In this document: piece after piece, positions 7,946-62,068 of the stretch
Position numbering within the stretch: position 1 is the stretch's first letter
How the letters are laid out: every line of letters begins with the position of its first letter
Origin: an uncultured Bacillota bacterium
GTDB lineage: Bacteria; Bacillota_I; Bacilli_A; RF39; UBA660
DNA length: 64,000 nt
Reading direction: 5' to 3'
Assembly: GCA_902492995.1 (NCBI GenBank)
Contig: CABUNR010000002.1
Span: 22,561 to 86,560 of the forward strand
The notes under the pieces: model-generated
Told to the model about the DNA's origin: nothing
The model's input: only the letters and a program-made list of their open reading frames with translations
Database searches by the model: none
Position numbers and translations under genes: made by a program

Positions 7946-8022
7946 GGGCGATTAGCTCAGTTGGTTAGAGCACCTGCCTTACAAGCAGGGGGTCATAGGT
8001 TCGAGTCCTATATCGCCCACCA
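7946..8022 (+). tRNA. tRNA-Val (anticodon TAC), CCA encoded
   Basis: Cloverleaf read by eye: acceptor gggcgat/atcgccc, anticodon loop cTTACAa, T-loop GGTTCGAGTCC. Confidence 0.8.
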
Positions 8023-8023
8023 T

Positions 8024-8099
8024 GCCGAAATGGCGCAACTGGTAGCGCAACTGACTTGTAATCAGTAGGTTGCGGGTTCGATTCCTGCTTTCGGCACCA
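8024..8099 (+). tRNA. tRNA-Thr (anticodon TGT), CCA encoded
   Basis: Acceptor gccgaaa/tttcggc, anticodon stem actga/tcagt with loop cTTGTAa, T-loop GGTTCGATTCC. Confidence 0.75.
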
Positions 8100-8104
8100 T
8101 TTTT

Positions 8105-8188
8105 GGAGGGGTAGCGAAGTGGTCAAACGCGGCAGACTGTAAATCTGTTCCTTCGGGTTCGATGGTTCAAATCCATCTCCCTCCACCA
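8105..8188 (+). tRNA. tRNA-Tyr (anticodon GTA), long variable arm, CCA encoded
   Basis: Acceptor ggagggg/tccctcc, anticodon loop cTGTAAa, variable arm and T-loop GGTTCAAATCC. Confidence 0.75.
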
Positions 8189-8200
8189 CTTTAGTTTTAT

Positions 8201-8276
8201 TGCCTCGTAGCCAAGCGGTAAGGCACCACACTTTGACTGTGGCATTTCGCTAGTTCGAATCTAGCCGAGGCAGCCA
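8201..8276 (+). tRNA. tRNA-Gln (anticodon TTG), CCA encoded
   Basis: U1:A72 acceptor tgcctcg/cgaggca, anticodon stem ccaca/tgtgg with loop cTTTGAc; same architecture as bacterial tRNA-Gln. Confidence 0.75.
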
Positions 8277-8293
8277 TTTTACTTTAACTATAT

Positions 8294-8369
8294 GTCCTGT
8301 TAGCTCAGTAGGTAGAGCATCTGACTTTTAATCAGAGGGTCACAGATTCGAGTTCTGTACAGGACACCA
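8294..8369 (+). tRNA. tRNA-Lys (anticodon TTT), CCA encoded
   Basis: Acceptor gtcctgt/acaggac, anticodon loop cTTTTAa, T-loop GATTCGAGTTC. Confidence 0.8.
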
Positions 8370-14711: not shown

Positions 14712-16319
14712 ATGATGGAAATAGAAGAAATGTTAAATGAAAATGGAGAATTTAATTTAGACAAAATACAGATCCTTTTAGATGAATTGGTTTACTCTTT
14801 TGATATTAATGAAGAAAATAAAGAAGATTTAAAACAATATAAAGAAGATACAAATATGTATGTAAAACTATATAATGAATATAATAGAAAAATGCCAGAA
14901 ATTGCTTTATTAATTAAGGGTACGGAAGATAAAATAGATGCTTTAAATCAAAAACAACAAAGATTAAATGGTAGAATATCAAAAAGAGATTTTGAAGAAA
15001 AAGCAAGCTTAGAAAAACAATTAAACGATTTAAAGAAAGAATATCAAGAAACAAGAGATAATAAAAAGGAAGCAAAAAGAGGCTATAATGAAACAAAAGC
15101 AAAATATGAAGAATTAGTAGTGGTTAATAAAGAAGGTCAAGCAAAAAAAGAACATGAAAAATATGCTTCAATGTTAGAAAATATTTGTAAATATTGTTTA
15201 TCTGAAAAGCAAAAATTAGAAAATGAAATTACAAAAATAAGAGAAAATATTAATTATTACAATGAAAAGTTGAACCAAATAGATATTGGTGATCGTGGTC
15301 AATTATTAGAAATAAATAATAATATTAAAAAAGAAAATGAAGAATTACAACAAGCAATAGAAAAATTAGTAACATTAAGTCCTCATTATGATAAAGTTAT
15401 AGAAATGATTGCAAAATCAGATGAATATCAAGGTACAGTTTCAAAAGATATTGTAACAGAATTAAAACAACAATTAGAAGAAGAAGCAAAAGAAATAAAA
15501 GAACCAACAGTGGAAGAGCCAACAGTAGAAGAACCAACAAAAGAAGAACCAACAGTGGAAGAAACAACAGTAGAAGAACCAACAGTGGAAGAAACAACAG
15601 TAGAAGAACCAACAGTAGAAGAACCAAAAGTGGAAGAACCAACAGTAGAAGAACCAACAGTGGAAGAACCAACAGTGGAAGAACCAACAGTAGAAGAACC
15701 AACAGTAGAAGAACCAACAGTAGAAGAGCCAACAGTAGAAGAACCAACAGTAGAAGAACCAACAGTAGAAGAACCAACAGTGGAAGAGCCAACAGTAGAA
15801 GAACCAACAGTGGAAGAACCAACAGTGGAAGAACCAAAAGTGGAAGAACCAAAAGTAGAAGAACCAAAATCATATAGTGAACGTTTAGAAGCACTAGCTA
15901 AAGAAGCACCTTTATTTAAAGATGAATCAAGAATTGACCCAAATCATAGTTATATGTCATATCAAAATGCAAGTAACTTAGGGTATGTAAATAATGGAAC
16001 CATAGAAATGCCACAACCAGAACCACAAAAAAATGAAGAAAAAGTCGGATTTTTTGAAAGAATAAAAGAAAAATTTACAAAAGAAGATAAAAAAGAAGAC
16101 ACTAACGTAAGAGAAGATGAAAATATTTCAAATGAAATTTATGGAACAGAACAACCACAAAATATTGAAGATCCAAATGAAATAGTAAATATTGATTATG
16201 TTCCAGAAACACTAAAAGAAAAAATAGAATATAAAGTTTGTAAATTTATGCTTCCACCAGAAAAATTTGATGAATGGTTAGCAACAAAAAGTAATCAAAC
16301 AGAATCAATGGTAAGATAA
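14712..16319 (+). CDS. Coiled-coil protein with an internal EEPTV pentapeptide tandem-repeat region
   Basis: N-terminal 250 aa K/E-rich coiled-coil, about 24 EEPTV repeats, then a C-terminal 150 aa. Confidence 0.6.
   Translation: MMEIEEMLNENGEFNLDKIQILLDELVYSFDINEENKEDLKQYKEDTNMYVKLYNEYNRKMPEIALLIKGTEDKIDALNQKQQRLNGRISKRDFEEKASLEKQLNDLKKEYQETRDNKKEAKRGYNETKAKYEELVVVNKEGQAKKEHEKYASMLENICKYCLSEKQKLENEITKIRENINYYNEKLNQIDIGDRGQLLEINNNIKKENEELQQAIEKLVTLSPHYDKVIEMIAKSDEYQGTVSKDIVTELKQQLEEEAKEIKEPTVEEPTVEEPTKEEPTVEETTVEEPTVEETTVEEPTVEEPKVEEPTVEEPTVEEPTVEEPTVEEPTVEEPTVEEPTVEEPTVEEPTVEEPTVEEPTVEEPTVEEPTVEEPKVEEPKVEEPKSYSERLEALAKEAPLFKDESRIDPNHSYMSYQNASNLGYVNNGTIEMPQPEPQKNEEKVGFFERIKEKFTKEDKKEDTNVREDENISNEIYGTEQPQNIEDPNEIVNIDYVPETLKEKIEYKVCKFMLPPEKFDEWLATKSNQTESMVR
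15501..15866 (+). repeat. Tandem 15-bp repeat array (gaaccaacagtRgaa, about 24 copies) encoding EEPTV
   Basis: Directly visible in the sequence; copies differ at synonymous sites (gtggaa/gtagaa, gaagaa/gaagag) plus T-to-K and P-to-T variants. Confidence 0.9.
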
Positions 16320-24814: not shown

Positions 24815-24892
24815 GTTAATAACAAGTGAAAAACTTGTCAAATATTTATCTTATGTTATTAACAAAATATTAAAAAGAAAGAAGGAAATAAA

Positions 24893-25249
24893 ATGATATT
24901 AGAAATGACAAAGGAACAAACAATTAAATTAATTAAAGGTTATTATAAAATAAATGAAAAAATGGATGTTGATGTAAAATTTGATACATTCACAAGTTAC
25001 TATGGAGATTTTAATAGACAAAGTTTAATTAATACAAACATTATTGTAGAAGCAAAAAAGGAAATATTAAATGAAGTATTTGAATTTAACTATAAATTAG
25101 ATATGGAAGATACAAAAAAAATCTTAAAAACATTATTGCTAGAACAAATAGATTTTGATGAAATGGATATTAGATACAATATAAATAGATCAGAGCAATT
25201 TGAAGGTCTAACAGTAAATGTAAAATCAAAACAAAAAGTAAAAAATTAA
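24893..25249 (+). CDS. Stand-alone paralog of the N-terminal domain of the nicotinamidase fusion protein
   Basis: 118 aa; MILEMTKEQTIKLIKGYYK...DVKFDTFT...ILKTLLLEQIDFDEMDIRYNINRSEQFEGL aligns along its whole length with residues 1-118 of ORF 25304..26227. Confidence 0.6.
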   Translation: MILEMTKEQTIKLIKGYYKINEKMDVDVKFDTFTSYYGDFNRQSLINTNIIVEAKKEILNEVFEFNYKLDMEDTKKILKTLLLEQIDFDEMDIRYNINRSEQFEGLTVNVKSKQKVKN

Positions 25250-25303
25250 TTTATTATATTTTATGTTATTAACAAAATATTAAAAAGAAAGAAGGAGATA
25301 AAA

Positions 25304-26227
25304 ATGACATTACAGATGACAAAAGATCAAATAATTAAATTAATAAAAACGTATTATAAAAAATATCAAAACATGAATGTTGATGTAAAATTTAATACAT
25401 TTACAAATTGTTCTTTAGATTTTAATAAAGAAAGATCTATTAAAATAAATATTATCGTAGATGAAATAAAAGATACGTACAAATTTAGAAATGAATTAGA
25501 TATAGAAGACATAAAAAATATTCTAAAAACATTATTACTAGAAGAAATGAATTTAGATGAAATGGATATTAACTATAATGTAAATGAGTTAGAACAATTT
25601 GAAGGACTAAGAATAAACATAAAATCAAAACAAAATATAAAAAATTTAAAATATTATGAAGGAATTCTTATCGTAGTAGATATGATAAATGGATTTGTAA
25701 AGGAAGGTGCATTACATGATAAAAAAATTATAGATGTAGTTCCAAGACAAATCGAGTTAATAAAAGAAGCTAAACAAAGAAATGATTTAGTTGTATTTAT
25801 TAGAGATGTTCATACAGAAAAATCGGTAGAACACAAAAGATTTAATGGAGCACTTCATTGCATTAAAGGAAGTGGTGAAGAAAATTTAATAGATGAATTA
25901 AAACCATATCAAAAAGACTCGATTTCGTTTGAAAAAAATTCAACTTCATTTATGTTTGCAAAAGGATTTATTCAAATGTTAGAACAATTAAAAAATTTAA
26001 AAAGAGTTGATGTAATTGGATGTTGTACAGACATTTGTATTGCAAATGGAGTAATTCCAATGATGAATTATTTTGATGAAAATAATAGAGATATTATAGT
26101 AAATGTTCATGAGGATGCGATAGAAACATATGATGCACCATTTCATGATAGAAATAAGTATAAAGAAGCAGCACTATTATTAATGAATCAACAAGGTGCA
26201 AAAATAAAATCAAAAAAAATAAGATAG
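25304..26227 (+). CDS. pncA: Nicotinamidase/isochorismatase-family hydrolase with a 118-aa N-terminal domain of unknown function
   Basis: C-terminal 190 aa carry an isochorismatase-fold D/K/C triad (VVDMINGF ... VIGCCTDICIANGV). NAD-salvage neighbours support a nicotinamidase assignment. Confidence 0.7.
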   Translation: MTLQMTKDQIIKLIKTYYKKYQNMNVDVKFNTFTNCSLDFNKERSIKINIIVDEIKDTYKFRNELDIEDIKNILKTLLLEEMNLDEMDINYNVNELEQFEGLRINIKSKQNIKNLKYYEGILIVVDMINGFVKEGALHDKKIIDVVPRQIELIKEAKQRNDLVVFIRDVHTEKSVEHKRFNGALHCIKGSGEENLIDELKPYQKDSISFEKNSTSFMFAKGFIQMLEQLKNLKRVDVIGCCTDICIANGVIPMMNYFDENNRDIIVNVHEDAIETYDAPFHDRNKYKEAALLLMNQQGAKIKSKKIR

Positions 26228-47209: not shown

Positions 47210-47265
47210 TTTTGAAATTCAAAATTATATATAGATGCGAAATTAAGAAAGAAAGGGAGAAAGAT

Positions 47266-48108
47266 ATGAATAATTTTATGATTTCGTTACAAAAGTTTTT
47301 TAAAAACAAAAACACAGTTACTATAATAGGAGTAGTAGCAATAATATTAATCTTGTTCTTTGGATATCGTTATCAAATAAAGAAACAAGTAAGCCCTGTA
47401 ACTGGTATACCTGTTGCAGCACAAACAATTCAACCAAGAACTAAAATAACAGCAGATATGTTAGAGTATATCGATGTAGCACCTATTGTTTTACAAAAAG
47501 GTGAAGTAATAACAAATAAAAACCTTATAATTGGAAAATATAGTAATTATAATACTATAATTCCAAAGGGAAGTATGTTTTATAACGCTACAGTTATAAA
47601 TGAAGAAGAATTACCAGATTCAGCATTTATTGAAGTTGCTGATGGTGAAGTACCATATAACTTTCCAGTTACAATGGATTCAACATATGGAAATTCAATT
47701 TATCCAGGAAATTATATAGATATTTATATGAAAGCCGAAGGTAAAGATGGAAAATTAATGGTAGGAAAATTACTTGAGAATGTAAAAGTACTAGCAGTTA
47801 AAGATTCCGCAGGAAGACATGTTTTTGAAAATAGTGAAGAATCAAGAACACCAGCATACTTAATTTTTGGAGTAAAACCAGAAATAAATATACTACTTAG
47901 AAAAGCAAGTTATATGGGTAACTACTCAGTTGTTTTATTCCCAGTACCACATGGAGCAACAGTTGATGAAGATGGAACAACAACAGTTACATCAGAAACA
48001 TTAAAGAATTTCATAAATGTTAACACAGTAGCTAATGATGAAATTGAAGATAAAAAAGATACAACAACAAATACAACAACAACTACAAACACAAATAAAC
48101 AAGGATAA
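47266..48108 (+). CDS. CpaB/RcpC-like Flp pilus assembly protein (SAF domain)
   Basis: Start refined to ATG 47266 (RBS aagggag). N-terminal TM, then a SAF-like segment (TKITADMLEYIDVAPIVLQKGEV) and an RcpC-like segment (YPGNYIDIYM...LLENVKVLAVKD); Thr-rich C-terminal tail. Confidence 0.55.
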   Translation: MNNFMISLQKFFKNKNTVTIIGVVAIILILFFGYRYQIKKQVSPVTGIPVAAQTIQPRTKITADMLEYIDVAPIVLQKGEVITNKNLIIGKYSNYNTIIPKGSMFYNATVINEEELPDSAFIEVADGEVPYNFPVTMDSTYGNSIYPGNYIDIYMKAEGKDGKLMVGKLLENVKVLAVKDSAGRHVFENSEESRTPAYLIFGVKPEINILLRKASYMGNYSVVLFPVPHGATVDEDGTTTVTSETLKNFINVNTVANDEIEDKKDTTTNTTTTTNTNKQG

Positions 48109-48114
48109 TAATTA

Positions 48115-49539
48115 ATGAATGATTCAATGTTTTCCCAAATTGATTTTGGGGAACTAAAAAAGTATTTGGATGATGATGATATAACCGATATTTCATATAG
48201 TAATAATGGACAACTATTTGTAAAAACTTTATCAAAAGGTATTTACAGAGTTGAAAATGAAACTGTTAACAATGCATTTATGGAAAAATTAGCATTTCAA
48301 TGTGCTAATGTTATGGGTAAAACATTTAATATGGCTCATCCATTTCTAGATGCTGAAGGAGCAGAGTTACGTTTGAACTTTGTTCACGATTCGATAGCTA
48401 AAAATGGTATAGCTGTATTAATTCGTAAAACTCCAGCTAAGATAAGACTGGAAAAAGACAAATTATTAAAAGAGGATTATATCGAATTAGATATACATGA
48501 TTTTTTAATGAAATGTGTTTGGGGGCATTGTAATATAATTGTGTGTGGAGAAACTGGTTCAGGTAAAACCGAATTTGTTAAATATTTAGCAGCACATACA
48601 AAAGAAGATGAAAAATTAATTACAATAGAGGATACACTTGAATTACATTTGGATCGTATATTCCCACATAGGGATATAGTAGCAATGAAAACAAATAATA
48701 TTGCTTCATATAGCGATGTATTAGTAACTTGTATGAGACAGAATCCTAAATGGATTTTGCTTTCAGAGGTTCGTAGTGCAGAAGCAGTTCTTGCAATAAG
48801 AAACTCCATCTCATCAGGACACTATATTTTATCAACAATACATGCTGATAAAGCATCAAGTATACCTAACCGTATGTATAGTTTGCTTGAAACAAATCAA
48901 GATATTGATCAATTTTTAAAATCTGTTTATAGATATATTCAACTTGGAATATATATTAGAGGGTATCAAGATAAAAGAACAAAAAGATTTCATCGTGAAA
49001 TAGGAGAAGTTACAGAATTTTATGTAACCGAAGATAATAAGGCAGAATATAATACGATTTATAGAAAAACAACGACAGGAAAAATAGTAAGAAAAAATCC
49101 ATCTAAATATCTGATAGATTACTTAGATGCACAAGGAGTTACAATTTCAAAAGATGAAATAAAAGAAGGAGAAACAGACGGACCTAGGAAAAATATAGAA
49201 GATCAACCTTTAGATTCAAATACTTCACAAAATATTCAAAAAGGAAATATTCAAAATAATGTACAAGGTAATATTCCTAATAACATGATTAATAATCAAA
49301 CAAATATTAGACCTAATACAATAATTAATAATCAACAAAATAGACCAAATGTAGGAAGTAATCAAATGCCTGGTATGCCAAATAATATAAATAGTAATCA
49401 GCCAATGTATAATCAAGCAAATTATCAAAATAGACAAGTAATTAATAATTCACAAAATCAAGGTTATAATCAAATAAATTATAATACGAATAGACAAGTT
49501 GTTAATCCATATGGGGTTAACATGAATAATTCAGAATAA
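48115..49539 (+). CDS. CpaF/TadA-type (VirB11 superfamily) secretion ATPase with a 115-aa C-terminal N/Q-rich tail
   Basis: Walker A GETGSGKT, Asp box ITIEDTLEL, Walker B/His box KWILLSEVRSAEA...STIHA. The tail from residue 360 is more than half N plus Q. Confidence 0.85.
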   Translation: MNDSMFSQIDFGELKKYLDDDDITDISYSNNGQLFVKTLSKGIYRVENETVNNAFMEKLAFQCANVMGKTFNMAHPFLDAEGAELRLNFVHDSIAKNGIAVLIRKTPAKIRLEKDKLLKEDYIELDIHDFLMKCVWGHCNIIVCGETGSGKTEFVKYLAAHTKEDEKLITIEDTLELHLDRIFPHRDIVAMKTNNIASYSDVLVTCMRQNPKWILLSEVRSAEAVLAIRNSISSGHYILSTIHADKASSIPNRMYSLLETNQDIDQFLKSVYRYIQLGIYIRGYQDKRTKRFHREIGEVTEFYVTEDNKAEYNTIYRKTTTGKIVRKNPSKYLIDYLDAQGVTISKDEIKEGETDGPRKNIEDQPLDSNTSQNIQKGNIQNNVQGNIPNNMINNQTNIRPNTIINNQQNRPNVGSNQMPGMPNNINSNQPMYNQANYQNRQVINNSQNQGYNQINYNTNRQVVNPYGVNMNNSE

Positions 49540-49552
49540 AGGAGGTAAATTA

Positions 49553-50458
49553 ATGGAATATGTAGTTTTTCTAATTATTGCATTAGTAGCAGTATTTGTT
49601 ATTTCTTATCGAAATAGTAGCGGGGAAAAAGTATATAAATATATTTCAAATAATGCTGGAAATATTTATGAAAAATACTCTCCTTATTCATTTAAAGAAG
49701 TAAGAAGAAAAGTAAAAGAATTAGGACAAGATTATACAAAAAAACAATATTTAATACAAATTACAATATTTGCAGCAGGAGCATCAGTCATTACATATCT
49801 TTACTTTTATAGTTTAATTATTTCGATATTTTATGCAATAGTTGCTATAATGGTAATACCATATCTTCAATATCTTAGATGTAAAAGAATATATAGTGAA
49901 TTTATTTTTGAACAAATACAAGTTTATACAACAAACGTAATAATGGAATTCGCAACTACTCAAGCTTTTGTTAAAGCACTTGAAGGAGTATATGAATCAG
50001 GAGTTTTAGAAGATCCTGTAAGAAGCGATGTAAAATTAATGATTGATATGGCTTATGATAATGGTACAATTGATGAATCTATAAAATTTTTTAATAAAAA
50101 ATATGATTATTACATAGTAAAAAATACTCATCAATTGTTCTTACAAATAACAAATGAAGGTTCTAAAAACTCAAGCGATGCACTTGAAAATATGAGCCAA
50201 GATATAGATATGCTTGTTGAATCAGTGTATAGAGATAGAATAGATAGAGCCAATTTCCATAAAAAGTTTGTAAGATTTGGTATAGTTTTATATCTTATGG
50301 TTATGCTTGTTCAATTCTTATTAAGCCCAGAAAGCTATATTGAATTATTAAATAGTAATTTTACTGTTAAATTATTATTGCATTTAATAATAATAATTAA
50401 TAGTTATTTCTTACTAAATGGAGAAAAATTTTATAATGAGAATGTAGGTGCTGAATAA
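49553..50458 (+). CDS. TadB-like (GspF-domain) pilus assembly membrane protein
   Basis: 301 aa with N-terminal TM, a central pair of TMs and a C-terminal TM; position directly after the ATPase. Confidence 0.45.
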   Translation: MEYVVFLIIALVAVFVISYRNSSGEKVYKYISNNAGNIYEKYSPYSFKEVRRKVKELGQDYTKKQYLIQITIFAAGASVITYLYFYSLIISIFYAIVAIMVIPYLQYLRCKRIYSEFIFEQIQVYTTNVIMEFATTQAFVKALEGVYESGVLEDPVRSDVKLMIDMAYDNGTIDESIKFFNKKYDYYIVKNTHQLFLQITNEGSKNSSDALENMSQDIDMLVESVYRDRIDRANFHKKFVRFGIVLYLMVMLVQFLLSPESYIELLNSNFTVKLLLHLIIIINSYFLLNGEKFYNENVGAE

Positions 50459-51246
50459 TGGAATTTGTAGCAATAGCAGTAATAATGATTTTTGTTCTTA
50501 TCTATACAAATAGAATAGATGCAAAAAGATTTTTAGGTGATGTAGAACCATACTTTAAAATGTTAATGGAAGATGATTATGTATTTTTGCTTAATTTAAG
50601 ATATGGTAGTAAAGATTTAGATGTAACAAAATTATTTAATGCAAGAATAAAAAATGCAGCATTAGTATTTGTAGCAGCAATAATATATTTCTTATTTACA
50701 AATATATCATTTATAAATGTTTTAATTGCTTTTATATTAGCCATTGTAACATTTAAAATGCCTTATACAAAATTACAAAATTATTATAGAGCAAATCTTG
50801 CAAAAATTAATCAAATGTTACCTTATTATTTAAAAAGTTTGGAAATATTAATACAACATTATACAGTTCCAGTAGCACTTGCAAGAAGTATTGAAACAGC
50901 ACCAGATATATTTAAACCAGGATTAAAAAAATTAGTAGAAAAAATTGAAAGCGGTGATTCTAGTATTGATCCTTATATGGATTTTGCAAAAGAATATCCA
51001 GTTAAAGATTCAATGAGAATGATGAGACTTTTATATCGTTTAAGTTTAGGAGCTCAAGAAAACAAACAAGAACAATTAGTAATGTTTGCAAAAAACGTTT
51101 CAACATTACAAAATAAAATGCGTGAAGATAAATATAAAGATCGTCTTGATGCAATGGAAAAGAAAACAATGATGATGTTATTTGCAACAGGTGGTGGAAT
51201 TTTAGCGCTTTTAATGTTTGCAATGATGAATATGATGAGTATTTAA
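50458..51246 (+). CDS. TadC-like (GspF-domain) pilus assembly membrane protein
   Basis: 262 aa with the same topology class; start overlaps the TadB-like stop (taATG), indicating translational coupling. Confidence 0.45.
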   Translation: MEFVAIAVIMIFVLIYTNRIDAKRFLGDVEPYFKMLMEDDYVFLLNLRYGSKDLDVTKLFNARIKNAALVFVAAIIYFLFTNISFINVLIAFILAIVTFKMPYTKLQNYYRANLAKINQMLPYYLKSLEILIQHYTVPVALARSIETAPDIFKPGLKKLVEKIESGDSSIDPYMDFAKEYPVKDSMRMMRLLYRLSLGAQENKQEQLVMFAKNVSTLQNKMREDKYKDRLDAMEKKTMMMLFATGGGILALLMFAMMNMMSI

Positions 51247-60337: not shown

Positions 60338-62068
60338 TTGGATAATAAAGATTTTGATGATGAAATAGATGAATTAGAAGATGAAACTCCTTCATATGAA
60401 GAAATGCCTGAAGAAGAAATAGAAAGTGAAAATCAAGATTTTTATACACAAAATATTAATAATCAAATAAGAAATATTAGAAGAGAAAATAAAGGAAGCC
60501 AAAATACCGTTAATAGACTTAGACAAAGAAATGCGAATACAATTGTAAAAAAAGCAACAATACCAAATCAAAATACTGATGAAGGAGAGCAACCAGAACA
60601 AAAACAAAATAAATTAGATAAATTAAATCCATTAAAACAAAATGGAGGATTATCTAATATTGGAAATAATTTTAAACAAAAAGGTAAAGAACTTGGTACT
60701 GCAGCAAAAGAAAAAACAAAAGAAGTTATAGCTAGTGGTGTAAAAAAATTATCTGCTTTTTTACTTAAAAATCCATATGTACTTATAATAATTGGAATTA
60801 TCATATTAATTATAGTTATTCCAGTTTTATGGAAAGCAAATGGTGACGAGGATGATAGCAGTGGCAATTTAGATAATTCTGAAATAATAAGTAATTCAGA
60901 TAGCATGATTTCACTTAAAAGGACAAAATTATCGAGGCAAGAATTTGTTGATGCATGTAATAATTATTCAAATGGTTCAAAACACAAAGCTTTTTATGAT
61001 AAATGTGGTAGAATATATGATATATCTAAAGAGAATAATTTTAACCCTGAAATGGTTGTAATTAGAGCAATAGTAGAAGGATTTTCACCAGGGGAATATA
61101 AAAATAATTACTGGGGTATTGGATGTTTTAATGGAGCAGGTTCAAGTGCCTGTAAAACATATGGCTCATTTGATGAAGGTGTAAAAGCATATATTAAAAA
61201 TGTTTCACAATATGAAACAGTAGAACAAATGGCTAGTAAATATGCATATATAGGTGATAACTGGTATAATCCAGGTAGTTCAGCAAGTGGAGGATGTTAT
61301 TATTTTCCTTATATAAAACAGTATATGAGTTCTGCGAGAATAATTACAGTTCAAAATGCATGTAGTGAAAGTAAAAAATGTTCAGGTACAATCTGTATTC
61401 CAACAAATGATGAAGATCAAATGGCATATGCTAAGTATCAAGTATCAAAAATGGTTGATGTAGGAAATAGTGTCTTTGGAAGTGTAACAAGTCAAGAAGC
61501 AACATCTAAAGCATCATCCTCAAAAATGCCAACCTCTGTTGAAGATTTAAAAATTAGATATTATTTTACATTTGATAAGGAAAAATATTTGAAATTAGAA
61601 GGAGCAGATAGTCATTTATTTGGACAATGTGTATGGTATGCATATCATAGAGCGATGGATATAGTAAATTCTTCAAATCTAAGTTCAGAAGAGAAACAAA
61701 AGAGAATTGAAAGTTTACAATCACATTCATCAGACGGAGGTGCATATGTAACTGCTATGGAGGGCTCAATATTTAAAAAGACTACAAATCCAAATGATAT
61801 AAAAGCACCAGCTGTTATATCTTGGAAAAATGGTTCATATGGACATGTTGCAATAATAGAAGAAGTACAAACAGACTCAAATGGTAATAAAACTTTTGTT
61901 GTATCAGAAGGATGGAGAAATAGAGATTGTCCGAATAGAAGCTGGTGTACACATAATTCAATAGAATCATTATGGGCTGTTACTAGATTTAATTCTTATA
62001 CAACTTCTTCAGTAAATACTTATAGTAGTGGTTATACCTTTGTAAATGCAGCTTCATTATTAGAATAG
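60338..62068 (+). CDS. CwlT/TcpG-like bifunctional cell-wall hydrolase (lysozyme-like domain plus C-terminal CHAP domain) with acidic N-terminus and TM anchor
   Basis: N-terminal 130 aa D/E-rich, TM YVLIIIGIILIIVIPVLW, central glycoside-hydrolase-like region, then C-terminal CHAP signature GQCVWYAYHRAM ... GHVAIIEEV (catalytic Cys/His). Confidence 0.65.
   Translation: MDNKDFDDEIDELEDETPSYEEMPEEEIESENQDFYTQNINNQIRNIRRENKGSQNTVNRLRQRNANTIVKKATIPNQNTDEGEQPEQKQNKLDKLNPLKQNGGLSNIGNNFKQKGKELGTAAKEKTKEVIASGVKKLSAFLLKNPYVLIIIGIIILIIVIPVLWKANGDEDDSSGNLDNSEIISNSDSMISLKRTKLSRQEFVDACNNYSNGSKHKAFYDKCGRIYDISKENNFNPEMVVIRAIVEGFSPGEYKNNYWGIGCFNGAGSSACKTYGSFDEGVKAYIKNVSQYETVEQMASKYAYIGDNWYNPGSSASGGCYYFPYIKQYMSSARIITVQNACSESKKCSGTICIPTNDEDQMAYAKYQVSKMVDVGNSVFGSVTSQEATSKASSSKMPTSVEDLKIRYYFTFDKEKYLKLEGADSHLFGQCVWYAYHRAMDIVNSSNLSSEEKQKRIESLQSHSSDGGAYVTAMEGSIFKKTTNPNDIKAPAVISWKNGSYGHVAIIEEVQTDSNGNKTFVVSEGWRNRDCPNRSWCTHNSIESLWAVTRFNSYTTSSVNTYSSGYTFVNAASLLE

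What the first reader, a model, noticed from the sequence alone, without database searches (positions are those of the whole stretch)
49192..49539. Prion-like N/Q-rich 115-aa tail fused to the CpaF/TadA secretion ATPase
The ATPase core ends near residue 360. The remaining sequence (NIQKGNIQNNVQGNIPNNMINNQTNIRPN...NQGYNQINYNTNRQVVNPYGVNMNNSE) is dominated by Asn and Gln, with scattered Pro, Gly and Tyr. This composition is typical of low-complexity, phase-separating or prion-like domains. Such tails are not a standard feature of VirB11-superfamily ATPases. It could mediate clustering of the motor at a pole or septum, or it could simply reflect AT-biased drift.
Basis: seen in the sequence. Interest (0 to 1): 0.55.

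Follow-up and report, generated by a model that had tools for sequence, protein, structure and literature searches.

The report
Fast-evolving N/Q-rich tail on secretion ATPase
The asparagine/glutamine-rich tail on this secretion-motor ATPase is real, but it is the AT-rich-genome version of a floppy, rapidly changing C-terminal extension that close relatives with the same operon carry at anything from about 9 to 140 residues (longer still in more distant members), so it is most likely a loosely constrained flexible tether rather than a dedicated prion domain.

Summary
ORF 48115-49539 (+, 474 aa) is a PilT/VirB11-superfamily (T2SSE) ATPase. Its last ~115 residues are 31% Asn and 15% Gln (41 N+Q in the best 80-aa window), the only such stretch in the 64-kb window.

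- Orthologs occur in at least 576 species-level genomes of small-genome gut Mycoplasmatota/Bacilli MAGs.
- In 79 complete orthologs (core 79-92% identical) the extension after the core runs from 9 to 140 aa.
- The operon is syntenic in the loci that reach far enough, whatever the tail length.
- Only 7 of 79 orthologs pass the Q/N-rich criterion.
- Asn content tracks local AT-richness (rho -0.61).
- Tail dN/dS is 0.3-0.7 against 0.03-0.07 for the core.
- Within-species amino-acid diversity is about 10-fold higher in the tail, and all indels fall there, one of them in a weak DNA tandem repeat.

The tail is still not junk. It stays open where a 115-codon open frame has P~1e-5. It is also depleted about 10-fold in Lys, Leu and Phe relative to mutational expectation.

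Most orthologs end in an acidic-hydrophobic tip (..VEVLFE). The window's clade has lost that tip and always keeps a tail of at least 40 aa.

Best reading: a composition-constrained disordered tether. Prion-like self-association is possible but unproven.

The parts
48115..49173 (+). Folded ATPase core (residues 1-353): N-terminal domain plus P-loop ATPase domain. Walker A is GETGSGKT (145-152), the Walker B-like motif is WILLSE (213-218), and the His box is STIHAD (240-245).
   Evidence: Pfam T2SSE E 6.5e-25. NCBIfam VirB11, TadA and TrbB hits are all below their cut-offs. PDB hits to 2oap, 8rkd, 4ii7 and 1g6o are all near E 1e-15. The core is 79-92% identical across 80 species-level loci. The last invariant column is E353. 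dN/dS is 0.03-0.07.
49174..49215 (+). Short acidic/Pro hinge (TDGPRKNIEDQPLD, residues 354-367) between the core and the N/Q-rich region.
   Evidence: Read from the sequence. Alignment with relatives loses conservation after E353. Short-tail orthologs consist of little more than an acidic hinge plus a tip.
49216..49536 (+).
   Evidence: 41 N+Q per 80 aa, unique in the window. Composition. Charge-hydropathy places it on the disordered side. AF2 shows coil only, pLDDT 31-47, but the whole model is poor. dN/dS 0.3-0.7. Amino-acid diversity about 10 times that of the core.
49228..49350 (+). Weak DNA tandem repeats inside the tail: a 24-bp unit x2.3 (QNIQKGNI/QNNVQGNI) and a 36-bp unit x2.2 (PNNMINNQTNIR/PNTIINNQQNR). 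They are probable sites of expansion and contraction.
   Evidence: TRF scores 63 and 95. A conspecific variant (P0126) lacks 5 aa (NIQKG) exactly in the first repeat.
49405..49506 (+). Distal Pro-free stretch MYNQANYQNRQVINNSQNQGYNQINYNTNRQVVN (residues 431-464). It is the best-conserved and most aggregation-prone part of the tail.
   Evidence: INNS, G[YF]NQ.N.N, NP and the terminal E are kept in the subclade P0001-P0007 plus P0125. dN/dS of the last 45 aa of the window protein (aligned to the last 50 of each relative) is 0.5-0.6, against 0.8-0.9 for the proximal tail versus P0002 and P0007. Highest approximate PAPA window score, 0.22.
49507..49539 (+). C-terminus PYGVNMNNSE plus the TAA stop. 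It lacks the acidic-hydrophobic tip (..VEVLFE / ..IENLESMFE) found at the end of most orthologs; only the terminal Glu remains.
   Evidence: C-termini of 79 orthologs and 120 homologs. NJ tree: the whole derived clade containing the window protein is tip-less.
47212..48108 (+). Upstream CpaB/RcpC-like protein, same operon.
   Evidence: Pfam RcpC E 2.5e-8. TIGR03177 E 9e-11, below its cut-off. Syntenic in 80/80 loci.
49553..51246 (+). Two downstream polytopic membrane proteins (301 and 262 aa). By position they are candidate platform proteins, but no T2SSF match was found.
   Evidence: ORFs. No significant Pfam hit even at E<=5. Found wherever the locus sequence reaches them: TM1 in 79/80 and TM2 in 77/80.

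Best explanation
The tail is the local, AT-rich-genome form of a clade-wide, intrinsically disordered C-terminal extension of a hexameric PilT/VirB11-superfamily ATPase. That ATPase belongs to an uncharacterised Tad-like/T4SS-like envelope machine of small-genome gut Mycoplasmatota. The extension behaves as a flexible tether. Its sequence and length drift almost freely, through point substitutions plus repeat slippage. Selection acts only on bulk properties: it must stay in frame, stay uncharged and polar, and stay poor in K, D, E, L and F. In most lineages selection also keeps a short terminal docking peptide (acidic-hydrophobic, ..[VI]E[VIT]L.FE). Asn-richness is what that constraint produces under strong AT mutation pressure; relatives with higher GC fill the same tether with P, A, G, T and V. 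In the window's lineage the canonical tip has been lost. What remains is a long N/Q/Y/V-rich tail whose distal 35-45 residues are the least free to vary. With six such tails per hexamer, the inferred role is weak, multivalent tethering of the motor to a partner or to other motors. That role is inferred, not shown. The N/Q-rich segment itself is not required for the machine to exist.
For: Shown: (1) All 120 closest homologs carry tails of 43-142 aa after residue 350, with conserved composition but not conserved sequence. (2) In 79 complete species-level orthologs the tail is 9-140 aa (median 51). Core identity is 79-92%, and gene order (big secreted protein, DUF5411, CpaB-like, ATPase, TM1, TM2, small TM proteins, 326-aa protein, T4SS-like genes) is kept in the loci that extend far enough, regardless of tail length. 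(3) Tail Asn fraction against locus GC gives rho -0.61 (p 1.4e-5). P+A+G gives rho +0.54. Gln shows no correlation. (4) NG86 dN/dS is 0.03-0.07 for the core and 0.3-0.7 for the tail. Core identity is 91-97% with no gaps, against 54-65% in the tail with 26-55 gap positions. (5) Within two species-level sets, tail amino-acid diversity is 10.1 and 10.8 times that of the core, and all indel columns lie in the tail. One 5-aa deletion falls in a TRF repeat. (6) The tail is not random. A mononucleotide model predicts K 16%, L 8.8% and F 3.3%, against 0.9%, 0.9% and 0% observed. It predicts N 10.7%, Q 4.2% and P 1.8%, against 31%, 14.8% and 7.0% observed. P(115 codons open) is about 1e-5, and 1 of 100,000 shuffles is open. 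There are 46 one-step nonsense paths; at dS 0.54-0.6 about 8-9 hits would be expected under neutrality, yet the C-terminus is homologous across the subclade. The same depletion of K, D, E, L and F holds across 30 tip-less clade members. (7) 104 of 165 unique tails end in the acidic-hydrophobic tip, at tail lengths from 9 to 142 aa. Other lineages end in KFFSG-type motifs. (8) Precedent: the flexible, acidic-aromatic C-terminal tail of the hexameric conjugation ATPase TraD binds TraM weakly and relies on avidity (PMC3159463).
Against: The window protein itself lacks the tip, so for this gene the 'tether presenting a peptide' model rests only on a weakly conserved distal segment. That segment's conservation could partly reflect recent common ancestry (core 91-97% identical). 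dN/dS in low-complexity sequence is unreliable, because alignment and codon bias (AAT and CAA almost exclusively) distort both dN and dS. The GC-composition correlation is not phylogenetically corrected. The AF2 model is poor throughout (mean pLDDT 50.4), so it gives no independent evidence of disorder. The 80 loci are the 80 best of at least 576, so tail statistics are biased towards near relatives.
Confidence: 0.66

Rival explanations
1. Functional prion-like or condensate-forming domain. The N/Q/Y-rich tail drives reversible self-association of ATPase hexamers (six tails each), clustering motors at assembly sites or switching the machine off epigenetically. In this clade it would have replaced the peptide-tip docking used by relatives.
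For: The tail passes the Q/N-rich criterion, with 41 per 80. The approximate PAPA score is above threshold, peaking at 0.22 in the distal 34-aa Pro-free N/Q/Y/V/I stretch, which is also the most conserved part of the tail. In the derived tip-less clade every one of the 30 tails examined is 40-121 aa and depleted in charge. No tip-less tail in the whole data set is shorter than 28 aa, whereas tip-bearing tails go down to 9 aa. Tip-less tails score higher than tip-bearing ones (median 0.152 vs 0.071, p 9e-5). Precedents exist for N/Q-rich or disordered inserts on the hexameric ATPase Rho that form prions or condensates (titles and abstracts of PMC6400439 and PMC13269538).
Against: There is no sequence conservation beyond the nearest relatives. 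dN/dS is 0.5-0.9. Length varies about 3-fold within the clade. The tail is 7% proline, spaced every ~14 residues in its proximal two-thirds; prolines are under-represented among prion-forming sequences (PMC3930707). Only 7 of 79 orthologs are Q/N-rich. Asn tracks AT bias. The PAPA parameters were recalled from memory, not verified. The comparisons are not phylogenetically independent.
Confidence: 0.14
2. Functionless by-product. The tail is a slippage-expanded low-complexity insertion that is merely tolerated, kept open only because truncation or frameshift would disturb expression of the closely following membrane-protein gene (start 14 nt after the stop) or remove a terminal residue.
For: Orthologs with 9-20 aa tails sit in the same operon. 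The proximal tail has dN/dS near 0.8-0.9. There are DNA tandem repeats and an indel polymorphism. Asn follows AT content. Tenericutes have the highest fractions of N/Q-rich disordered proteins among bacteria (PMC6400439).
Against: The strong and clade-wide depletion of K, L, F, D and E contrasts with the mutational expectation: N-to-K is a single AAT-to-AAA change, yet K stays at 0-6%. The open frame persists despite 46 one-step nonsense paths. The window holds no other N/Q-rich protein among 53 long ORFs, so this is not a genome-wide habit. The distal tail is more constrained than the proximal tail.
Confidence: 0.17
3. Annotation or sequence artefact: a frameshift, a fused downstream ORF, or read-through into a spacer.
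For: None found. It was considered only because AT-rich low-complexity DNA is error-prone.
Against: The same in-frame tail architecture is seen in 120 independent homolog clusters and 79 species genomes from many assemblies. The identical 474-aa protein or near-identical variants occur on many contigs. The other two forward frames carry 9 and 25 stops. The downstream gene starts normally at 49553.
Confidence: 0.01

Closest known systems
Bacterial N/Q-rich intrinsically disordered ('candidate prion-like') regions, e.g. the Clostridium botulinum Rho insert; catalogued by Harrison 2019 (PMC6400439)
   Same: N/Q-dominated, uncharged low-complexity region appended to a hexameric P-loop ATPase. It passes composition-based criteria. 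It occurs in a lineage (Tenericutes/Mycoplasmatota) noted for the highest fraction of such regions.
   Different: Prion or amyloid behaviour is untested here. The prion-like state is not conserved among orthologs (7 of 79). The tail is richer in Pro and aliphatic residues than classic yeast prion domains. It is C-terminal on a secretion ATPase, an association I did not find described.
F-family TraD coupling-protein C-terminal tail binding TraM (PMC3159463)
   Same: Hexameric membrane-associated transfer ATPase with a flexible C-terminal extension ending in an acidic-aromatic peptide. Each contact is weak and is strengthened by the avidity of several tails. Most orthologs of the window protein end in ..VEVLFE or ..ENLESMFE after a variable linker.
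   Different: A different ATPase family (FtsK/VirD4-like versus PilT/VirB11-like). No TraM-like partner was identified here. The window protein itself lacks the tip.
SSB intrinsically disordered linker plus acidic tip, and FtsZ C-terminal linker plus C-terminal peptide (established knowledge, not re-checked here)
   Same: The architecture is conserved core, then a hypervariable-length, composition-constrained disordered linker, then a short conserved terminal docking peptide. Linker sequence is free while length and composition are loosely constrained.
   Different: Unrelated proteins and partners. Analogy of design only.
CpaF/TadA Tad-pilus motor (PMC12019362, PMC11300603)
   Same: Same ATPase superfamily, with a CpaB/RcpC-like neighbour. 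A disordered region attached to the motor modulates pilus dynamics without being needed for ATPase activity.
   Different: The CpaF IDR is N-terminal, and the described classes I-III have only N-terminal additions. The window protein has only 6 residues before the point where its alignment enters CpaF, which begins at CpaF residue 144, so it has no room for the CpaF IDR and three-helix bundle. It fails the TadA NCBIfam cut-off. Its neighbours do not match T2SSF.

Membership tests
PilT/VirB11-like secretion ATPase superfamily (Pfam T2SSE, PF00437) | Profile match above the Pfam gathering score | tested here: met
   88 bits against a cut-off of 24.9, E 6.5e-25, residues 100-272.
PilT/VirB11-like secretion ATPase superfamily (Pfam T2SSE, PF00437) | Walker A P-loop and catalytic boxes present and conserved | tested here: met
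   G145-E-T-G-S-G-K-T152, E218 and H243 are all invariant in 40 aligned homologs.
CpaF/TadA (Tad pilus motor) | Score above the curated family cut-off | tested here: not met
   TIGR03819, the TadA-family model, scores 99 bits against a cut-off of 373.
CpaF/TadA (Tad pilus motor) | Minimum architecture of three-helix bundle + NTD + ATPase domain (PMC12019362) | tested here: not met
   Query residues 7-258 align to CpaF 144-397 (9e24). Only 6 residues precede the NTD, which leaves no room for the three-helix bundle that follows the 79-residue IDR in CpaF.
CpaF/TadA (Tad pilus motor) | Operon with TadB/TadC (T2SSF) platform proteins, Flp pilin, prepilin peptidase and CpaB/RcpC | tested here: inconclusive
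   A CpaB/RcpC-like gene is present. The two downstream membrane proteins give no T2SSF hit even at E<=5. The small N-terminal-TM proteins are unassigned. No peptidase was seen.
VirB11 (T4SS ATPase) | Score above the curated family cut-off | tested here: not met
   TIGR02788 scores 113 bits against a cut-off of 250. The PRK13851 and PRK13900 models are also far below their cut-offs, although T4SS-like genes lie 4-10 kb downstream.
Q/N-rich prion-like domain (compositional class) | At least 30 Q+N in 80 consecutive residues (Michelitsch-Weissman criterion, recalled from memory) | tested here: met
   41 per 80 at residues 379-458.
Q/N-rich prion-like domain (compositional class) | Predicted intrinsic disorder | tested here: inconclusive
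   Charge-hydropathy: H 0.345 is below the boundary of 0.416, the disordered side. AF2 gives coil only at pLDDT 31-47, but the core is also poorly modelled. No dedicated disorder predictor was available.
Q/N-rich prion-like domain (compositional class) | Positive PAPA/PLAAC-type score | tested here: inconclusive
   A home-made PAPA-like score gives a maximum of 0.115 (double-averaged) and 0.22 (single window) against a threshold of 0.05. Both the propensity table and the threshold were recalled from memory. PLAAC itself was not run.
Q/N-rich prion-like domain (compositional class) | Prion-like state conserved among orthologs (expected if the state is functional) | tested here: not met
   7 of 79 species-level orthologs reach 30 per 80, and 36 of 79 have tails under 40 aa.
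Q/N-rich prion-like domain (compositional class) | Self-propagating amyloid or heritable aggregation | not testable with these tools
   This needs in vitro or in vivo assays.
Disordered linker plus C-terminal docking peptide architecture (SSB, FtsZ, TraD type) | Hypervariable-length, composition-constrained linker after a conserved core | tested here: met
   Tails are 9-140 aa at 79-92% core identity. dN/dS and diversity contrasts are.
Disordered linker plus C-terminal docking peptide architecture (SSB, FtsZ, TraD type) | Conserved terminal peptide | tested here: not met
   It is present in 104 of 165 unique tails of relatives (..E-[VI]-L-F-E), but the window protein ends ..NPYGVNMNNSE and its whole subclade is tip-less.
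Disordered linker plus C-terminal docking peptide architecture (SSB, FtsZ, TraD type) | Identified binding partner of the tip | not testable with these tools
   Only single-chain structure prediction was available.

The most novel reading that the evidence does not exclude
In one clade of gut Mycoplasmatota the secretion-motor ATPase has exchanged a specific C-terminal docking peptide for a long N/Q/Y-rich, self-associating tail. Six tails per hexamer would then drive condensate-like or amyloid-like clustering, or heritable switching, of an envelope machine. This would be the first prion-like regulatory module on a PilT/VirB11-family motor.
Probability: 0.13. Interest if true: 0.75.

Novelty: new member of a known kind. 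Interest (0 to 1): 0.3.

Why it matters
Taken at face value, a prion-like domain on a secretion motor would suggest a new way of clustering or switching envelope machines. The comparative data show something more ordinary that is still useful. The ATPase family of an uncharacterised, very widespread machine of uncultured small-genome gut bacteria carries a C-terminal disordered tether, a position not described for CpaF-type motors. In most lineages the tether ends in a short acidic-hydrophobic peptide. That peptide is a concrete handle for finding the motor's partner. The case is also a clean natural example of how AT mutation pressure turns a composition-constrained linker into something that scores as 'prion-like'. 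That is a caution for proteome-wide prion-domain screens in AT-rich bacteria.

Tried and rejected
1. Megablast of the operon against the plasmid and phage collections found no match. The locus is chromosomal: DNA ligase, pyruvate formate-lyase, NAPRTase and a tRNA cluster lie in the same window.
2. An AF2 model of the full protein from a 40-sequence alignment was poor everywhere (mean pLDDT 50.4, pTM 0.43). It could not discriminate a disordered tail from a folded core, so no fold search was run and the second job was not spent.
3. I searched for a conserved motif across the whole tip-less clade with L-INS-i on the last 60 aa of 28 tails. Only composition and scattered V/I/M/Y positions are shared. 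The INNS..GYNQ.NYN..NPY motif is confined to the nearest subclade.
4. Tail length against GC shows no correlation (rho 0.11). Tail length against tip presence shows no difference in medians (p 0.97); only the minimum differs.
5. Pfam at E<=5 on the neighbours, intended to name the platform proteins, a TadZ-like protein and the pilins, gave nothing credible.
6. A literature search for this machine in RF39/Tenericutes found no description. A search for prion-like domains on secretion ATPases found none ('secretion ATPase' scored 0 in all listed papers).
7. I could not retrieve the exact PAPA or PLAAC parameter tables from the papers held, so the prion score is approximate.
8. The antisense ORF 49225-49437 (70 aa, I/L-rich) was dismissed as the usual mirror image of an A-rich coding strand.
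Full report
**1. What is there**

The ORF 48115-49539 (+) encodes a 474-aa protein.
- Residues 100-272 match Pfam T2SSE (PF00437) at 88 bits, E 6.5e-25.
- Walker A (GETGSGKT, 145-152), E218 and H243 are invariant among 40 aligned homologs.
- NCBIfam hits to VirB11 (113 bits, cut-off 250), the TadA family (99, cut-off 373) and TrbB (94, cut-off 305) are all far below their cut-offs.
- By sequence the core is equidistant (E about 1e-15) from archaeal GspE 2oap, CpaF 8rkd/9e24, FlaI 4ii7 and VirB11 1g6o.
- The alignment to CpaF starts at CpaF residue 144 and leaves only six query residues upstream. The protein therefore has no room for the IDR and three-helix bundle of bona fide CpaF.

The protein is a PilT/VirB11-superfamily motor. 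It is not demonstrably CpaF/TadA.

The window is about 24% GC and chromosomal. NAD-dependent DNA ligase, pyruvate formate-lyase, NAPRTase and a five-tRNA cluster lie in it. Nothing similar is in the plasmid or phage collections.

**2.

- Residues 360-474 are N 31.3%, Q 14.8%, P 7.0%, K 0.9%, L 0.9% and F 0. The core is N 5.6%, Q 2.5% and K 8.6%.
- The best 80-aa window has 41 N+Q. No other stop-to-stop segment of at least 100 aa in the window, in any frame, reaches 30. The runner-up has 28, and the median of 53 long plus-strand ORFs is 14.
- N/Q-richness is therefore specific to this tail and is not a proteome-wide habit here.
- The last invariant core column is E353. A short acidic/Pro hinge follows, and the N/Q-rich part starts near residue 368.
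- TRF finds weak 24-bp and 36-bp tandem repeats at 49228-49350.

**3. Comparative evidence**

The protein database holds 7,418 homologs at E<=1e-10 among the 8,000 candidates scored. All 120 best (70-100% identical) carry a tail of 43-142 aa after residue 350. Composition is conserved (N+Q 0.21-0.45) but sequence is not.

A scan of species-representative genomes found at least 576 genomes with a relative. The 80 best are gut and rumen MAGs labelled Bacilli, Tenericutes, Mollicutes or Mycoplasmatota. Some have closed ~1.2-Mb chromosomes: OZ006994.1 at 1.256 Mb and JBAMOY010000001.1 at 1.203 Mb.

In the 79 complete orthologs:
- Core identity is 79-92%.
- The extension after residue 350 ranges from 9 to 140 aa (median 51), and 36 are shorter than 40 aa.
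- Gene order is the same whatever the tail length, in the loci that extend far enough. The order is: large secreted protein, DUF5411, CpaB-like, ATPase, two membrane proteins, three small TM proteins, a 326-aa protein, then T4SS-pilin-like and TrbL-like genes.
- That includes L074 (9 aa), L041 and L050 (10 aa) and L038 (12 aa).

More distant clade members (52-81% identical cluster representatives) have tails up to 369 aa built from P/Q/V/A/E-rich repeats. Outgroups at 30-41% identity mostly have none.

**4. How the tail evolves**

- Among tails of at least 40 aa, Asn fraction falls with local GC (Spearman -0.61, p 1.4e-5). P+A+G rises (+0.54). Gln is independent of GC. This is not phylogenetically corrected.
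- In the nearest subclade (P0001-P0007, P0125) the core is 91-97% identical without a single gap. The tail is 54-65% identical with 26-55 gap positions.
- Nei-Gojobori dN/dS against three relatives is 0.03-0.07 for the core and 0.32-0.71 for the tail.
- Against P0002 and P0007 the proximal tail gives 0.81-0.90. The last 45 aa of the window protein, aligned to the last 50 of each relative, give 0.50-0.58.
- These numbers are rough, because alignment and extreme codon bias distort low-complexity estimates.
- Within two species-level sets, tail amino-acid diversity is 10.1 and 10.8 times that of the core. Every indel column is in the tail.
- One conspecific variant lacks NIQKG, inside the 24-bp repeat.

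**5. The tail is not junk**

With the tail's own base composition, a random 115-codon frame stays open with P about 1e-5, and 1 of 100,000 shuffles is open. That model compares with the observed composition as follows:

| Residue | Expected | Observed |
|---|---|---|
| K | 16% | 0.9% |
| L | 8.8% | 0.9% |
| F | 3.3% | 0% |
| N | 10.7% | 31% |
| Q | 4.2% | 14.8% |
| P | 1.8% | 7.0% |

- The tail contains 46 single-step routes to a stop codon, 16 of them CAA>TAA. At dS about 0.54-0.6, roughly 8-9 nonsense hits would be expected between the window gene and P0002 or P0007 under neutrality. Yet their C-termini are homologous.
- The same depletion holds over 30 members of the clade, as tail/core ratios: K 0.25, D 0.23, E 0.40, L 0.21, F 0.11.
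- N-to-K is a single AAT-to-AAA change favoured by AT pressure, so the scarcity of Lys indicates selection on charge.

In short, sequence and length are nearly free, while frame and bulk composition are constrained. This is the signature of a disordered linker.

**6. A terminal peptide in most relatives, lost here**

- 104 of 165 unique tails end in an acidic-hydrophobic tip. Examples are ..VEVLFE, ..AEILFE, ..EIIFE, ..VEELF, ..VESLF, ..VETLKFE and ..IENLESMFE.
- Among the tip class, position -1 is E in 80 of 104, -2 is F in 73, and -5 is E in 79.
- The tip occurs on tails from 9 to 142 aa. The shortest proteins are essentially core plus acidic hinge plus tip.
- Other lineages end in KFFSG-type motifs.
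- On an NJ tree of the core, the window protein falls in a derived clade where the tip is absent in every member. The 30 tails examined there are 40-121 aa after E353.
- Across all the data, tip-less tails are never shorter than 28 aa.
- The window protein ends ..NPYGVNMNNSE; only the terminal Glu is retained.
- The distal motif NYQNRQVINNS..GYNQ.NYN..NPY is conserved only in the immediate subclade.

**7. Prion-likeness**

In favour:
- The tail passes the 30-per-80 criterion.
- It lies on the disordered side of the charge-hydropathy boundary, H 0.345 against 0.416.
- A PAPA-like score computed with propensities recalled from memory is above the recalled 0.05 threshold. It peaks at 0.22 in the 34-aa Pro-free stretch at residues 431-464.

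Against:
- The tail has eight prolines. Prolines and charged residues are under-represented among prion-forming sequences (PMC3930707).
- Only 7 of 79 orthologs are Q/N-rich.
- Harrison (PMC6400439) reports that Tenericutes have the highest fractions of N/Q-rich disordered proteins and prion predictions among bacteria, and notes that mutational bias generates such regions in many fungal proteomes.

AF2 gave coil only at pLDDT 31-47 for the tail. The whole model is poor (mean 50.4), so this adds little.

**8. Mechanism**

Best supported, with confidence about 0.66: a composition-constrained, intrinsically disordered C-terminal tether on a hexameric motor. Its N-richness is the product of AT pressure.
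- In most lineages it presents a short docking peptide.
- In the window's lineage that peptide is gone, and a long N/Q/Y/V-rich tail remains.
- That tail may provide weak multivalent contacts, with six tails per hexamer. This last step is inferred.

The design parallels the TraD C-terminal tail that binds TraM weakly and relies on avidity (PMC3159463). From general knowledge it also parallels the SSB linker plus tip and the FtsZ linker plus C-terminal peptide.

Rivals:
- A genuinely functional prion-like or condensate module, about 0.14. The always-long, higher-scoring tails of the tip-less clade favour it.
- A merely tolerated slippage product, about 0.17.
- An artefact, about 0.01.

**9. Novelty and verdict**

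N/Q-rich disordered regions in AT-rich bacteria are a known kind. One on the C-terminus of a PilT/VirB11-family motor is not described in the CpaF literature I could read, where only N-terminal IDR and FHA classes are reported (PMC12019362). The clade-wide 'variable linker plus acidic-hydrophobic tip' is a useful, apparently unreported detail of an uncharacterised but very widespread machine.

The finding is real, and the strong interpretation (a prion-like functional domain) is not supported as the default. Interest 0.3.

Noticed in passing
window 38874-62746: A ~24-kb co-directional gene train. It holds two giant Cys-rich secreted proteins (1180 and 971 aa, no Pfam hit), DUF5411, a CpaB/RcpC-like protein, the T2SSE ATPase, two membrane proteins with no T2SSF match, three small N-terminal-TM proteins and a 326-aa protein. 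These are followed by T4SS_pilin-like, TrbL_4-like and VirB4/TraG-P-loop-like genes and a CHAP hydrolase. The part up to the TrbL-like gene is syntenic in the 80 loci examined wherever they extend far enough, from at least 576 species genomes of ~1.2-Mb gut Mycoplasmatota/Bacilli MAGs. It appears chromosomal, and I found no description of it. It is a hybrid Tad-like/Gram-positive-T4SS-like machine of unknown function.
   Followed up: partly
C-termini of orthologs, e.g. L074, L041, L023, L003; proteins P0043-P0116: Most orthologous ATPases end in a conserved acidic-hydrophobic peptide (..[VI]E[VIT]L.FE-COOH; ..IENLESMFE in an abundant 472-aa gut lineage). It occurs regardless of linker length (9-142 aa). 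It is a candidate docking motif whose partner is unknown. More distant members end in KFFSG(P/T)V instead.
   Followed up: partly
window 15499-15867 (inside ORF 14712-16319, +): 24.6 tandem copies of a 15-bp unit (91% match, TRF score 598) encode an (EEPTV)n array in a 535-aa coiled-coil-like protein. This is a second low-complexity linker in the window, but acidic/Pro-rich, which shows that low-complexity composition here is protein-specific.
   Followed up: partly
window 24843-25646: A 399-bp unit repeated twice in tandem (79% match, TRF score 1002). It spans an intergenic region and the start of ORF 25304-26227.
   Followed up: no
window about 60430-60670 (N-terminal part of the CHAP-domain protein 60338-62068): The second most N/Q-rich stretch in the window (28 N+Q per 80 aa), mixed with K/R/E. 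It is just under the Q/N-rich criterion and lies in the same gene cluster.
   Followed up: no
window 48050-48105 (C-terminus of the CpaB-like protein 47212-48108): A short Thr/Asn-rich low-complexity end, DKKDTTTNTTTTTNTNKQG, immediately upstream of the ATPase start.
   Followed up: no
window 7946-8369: A tight cluster of five tRNA genes (Val-tac, Thr-tgt, Tyr-gta, Gln-ttg, Lys-ttt) on the + strand.
   Followed up: no
proteins P0160-P0250 (outgroup ATPases, 30-40% identical): Outgroup relatives share a motif right after the core, [KR]-F-x-x-x-G-[IV]-x-[DN]-P-[FWY] (for example AGILDPYEY and AGIDNPFINE). It aligns roughly with LDAQGVTISKDEI of the window protein. A few also carry long acidic or N/D/Y-rich tails (P0193, P0196).
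   Followed up: no
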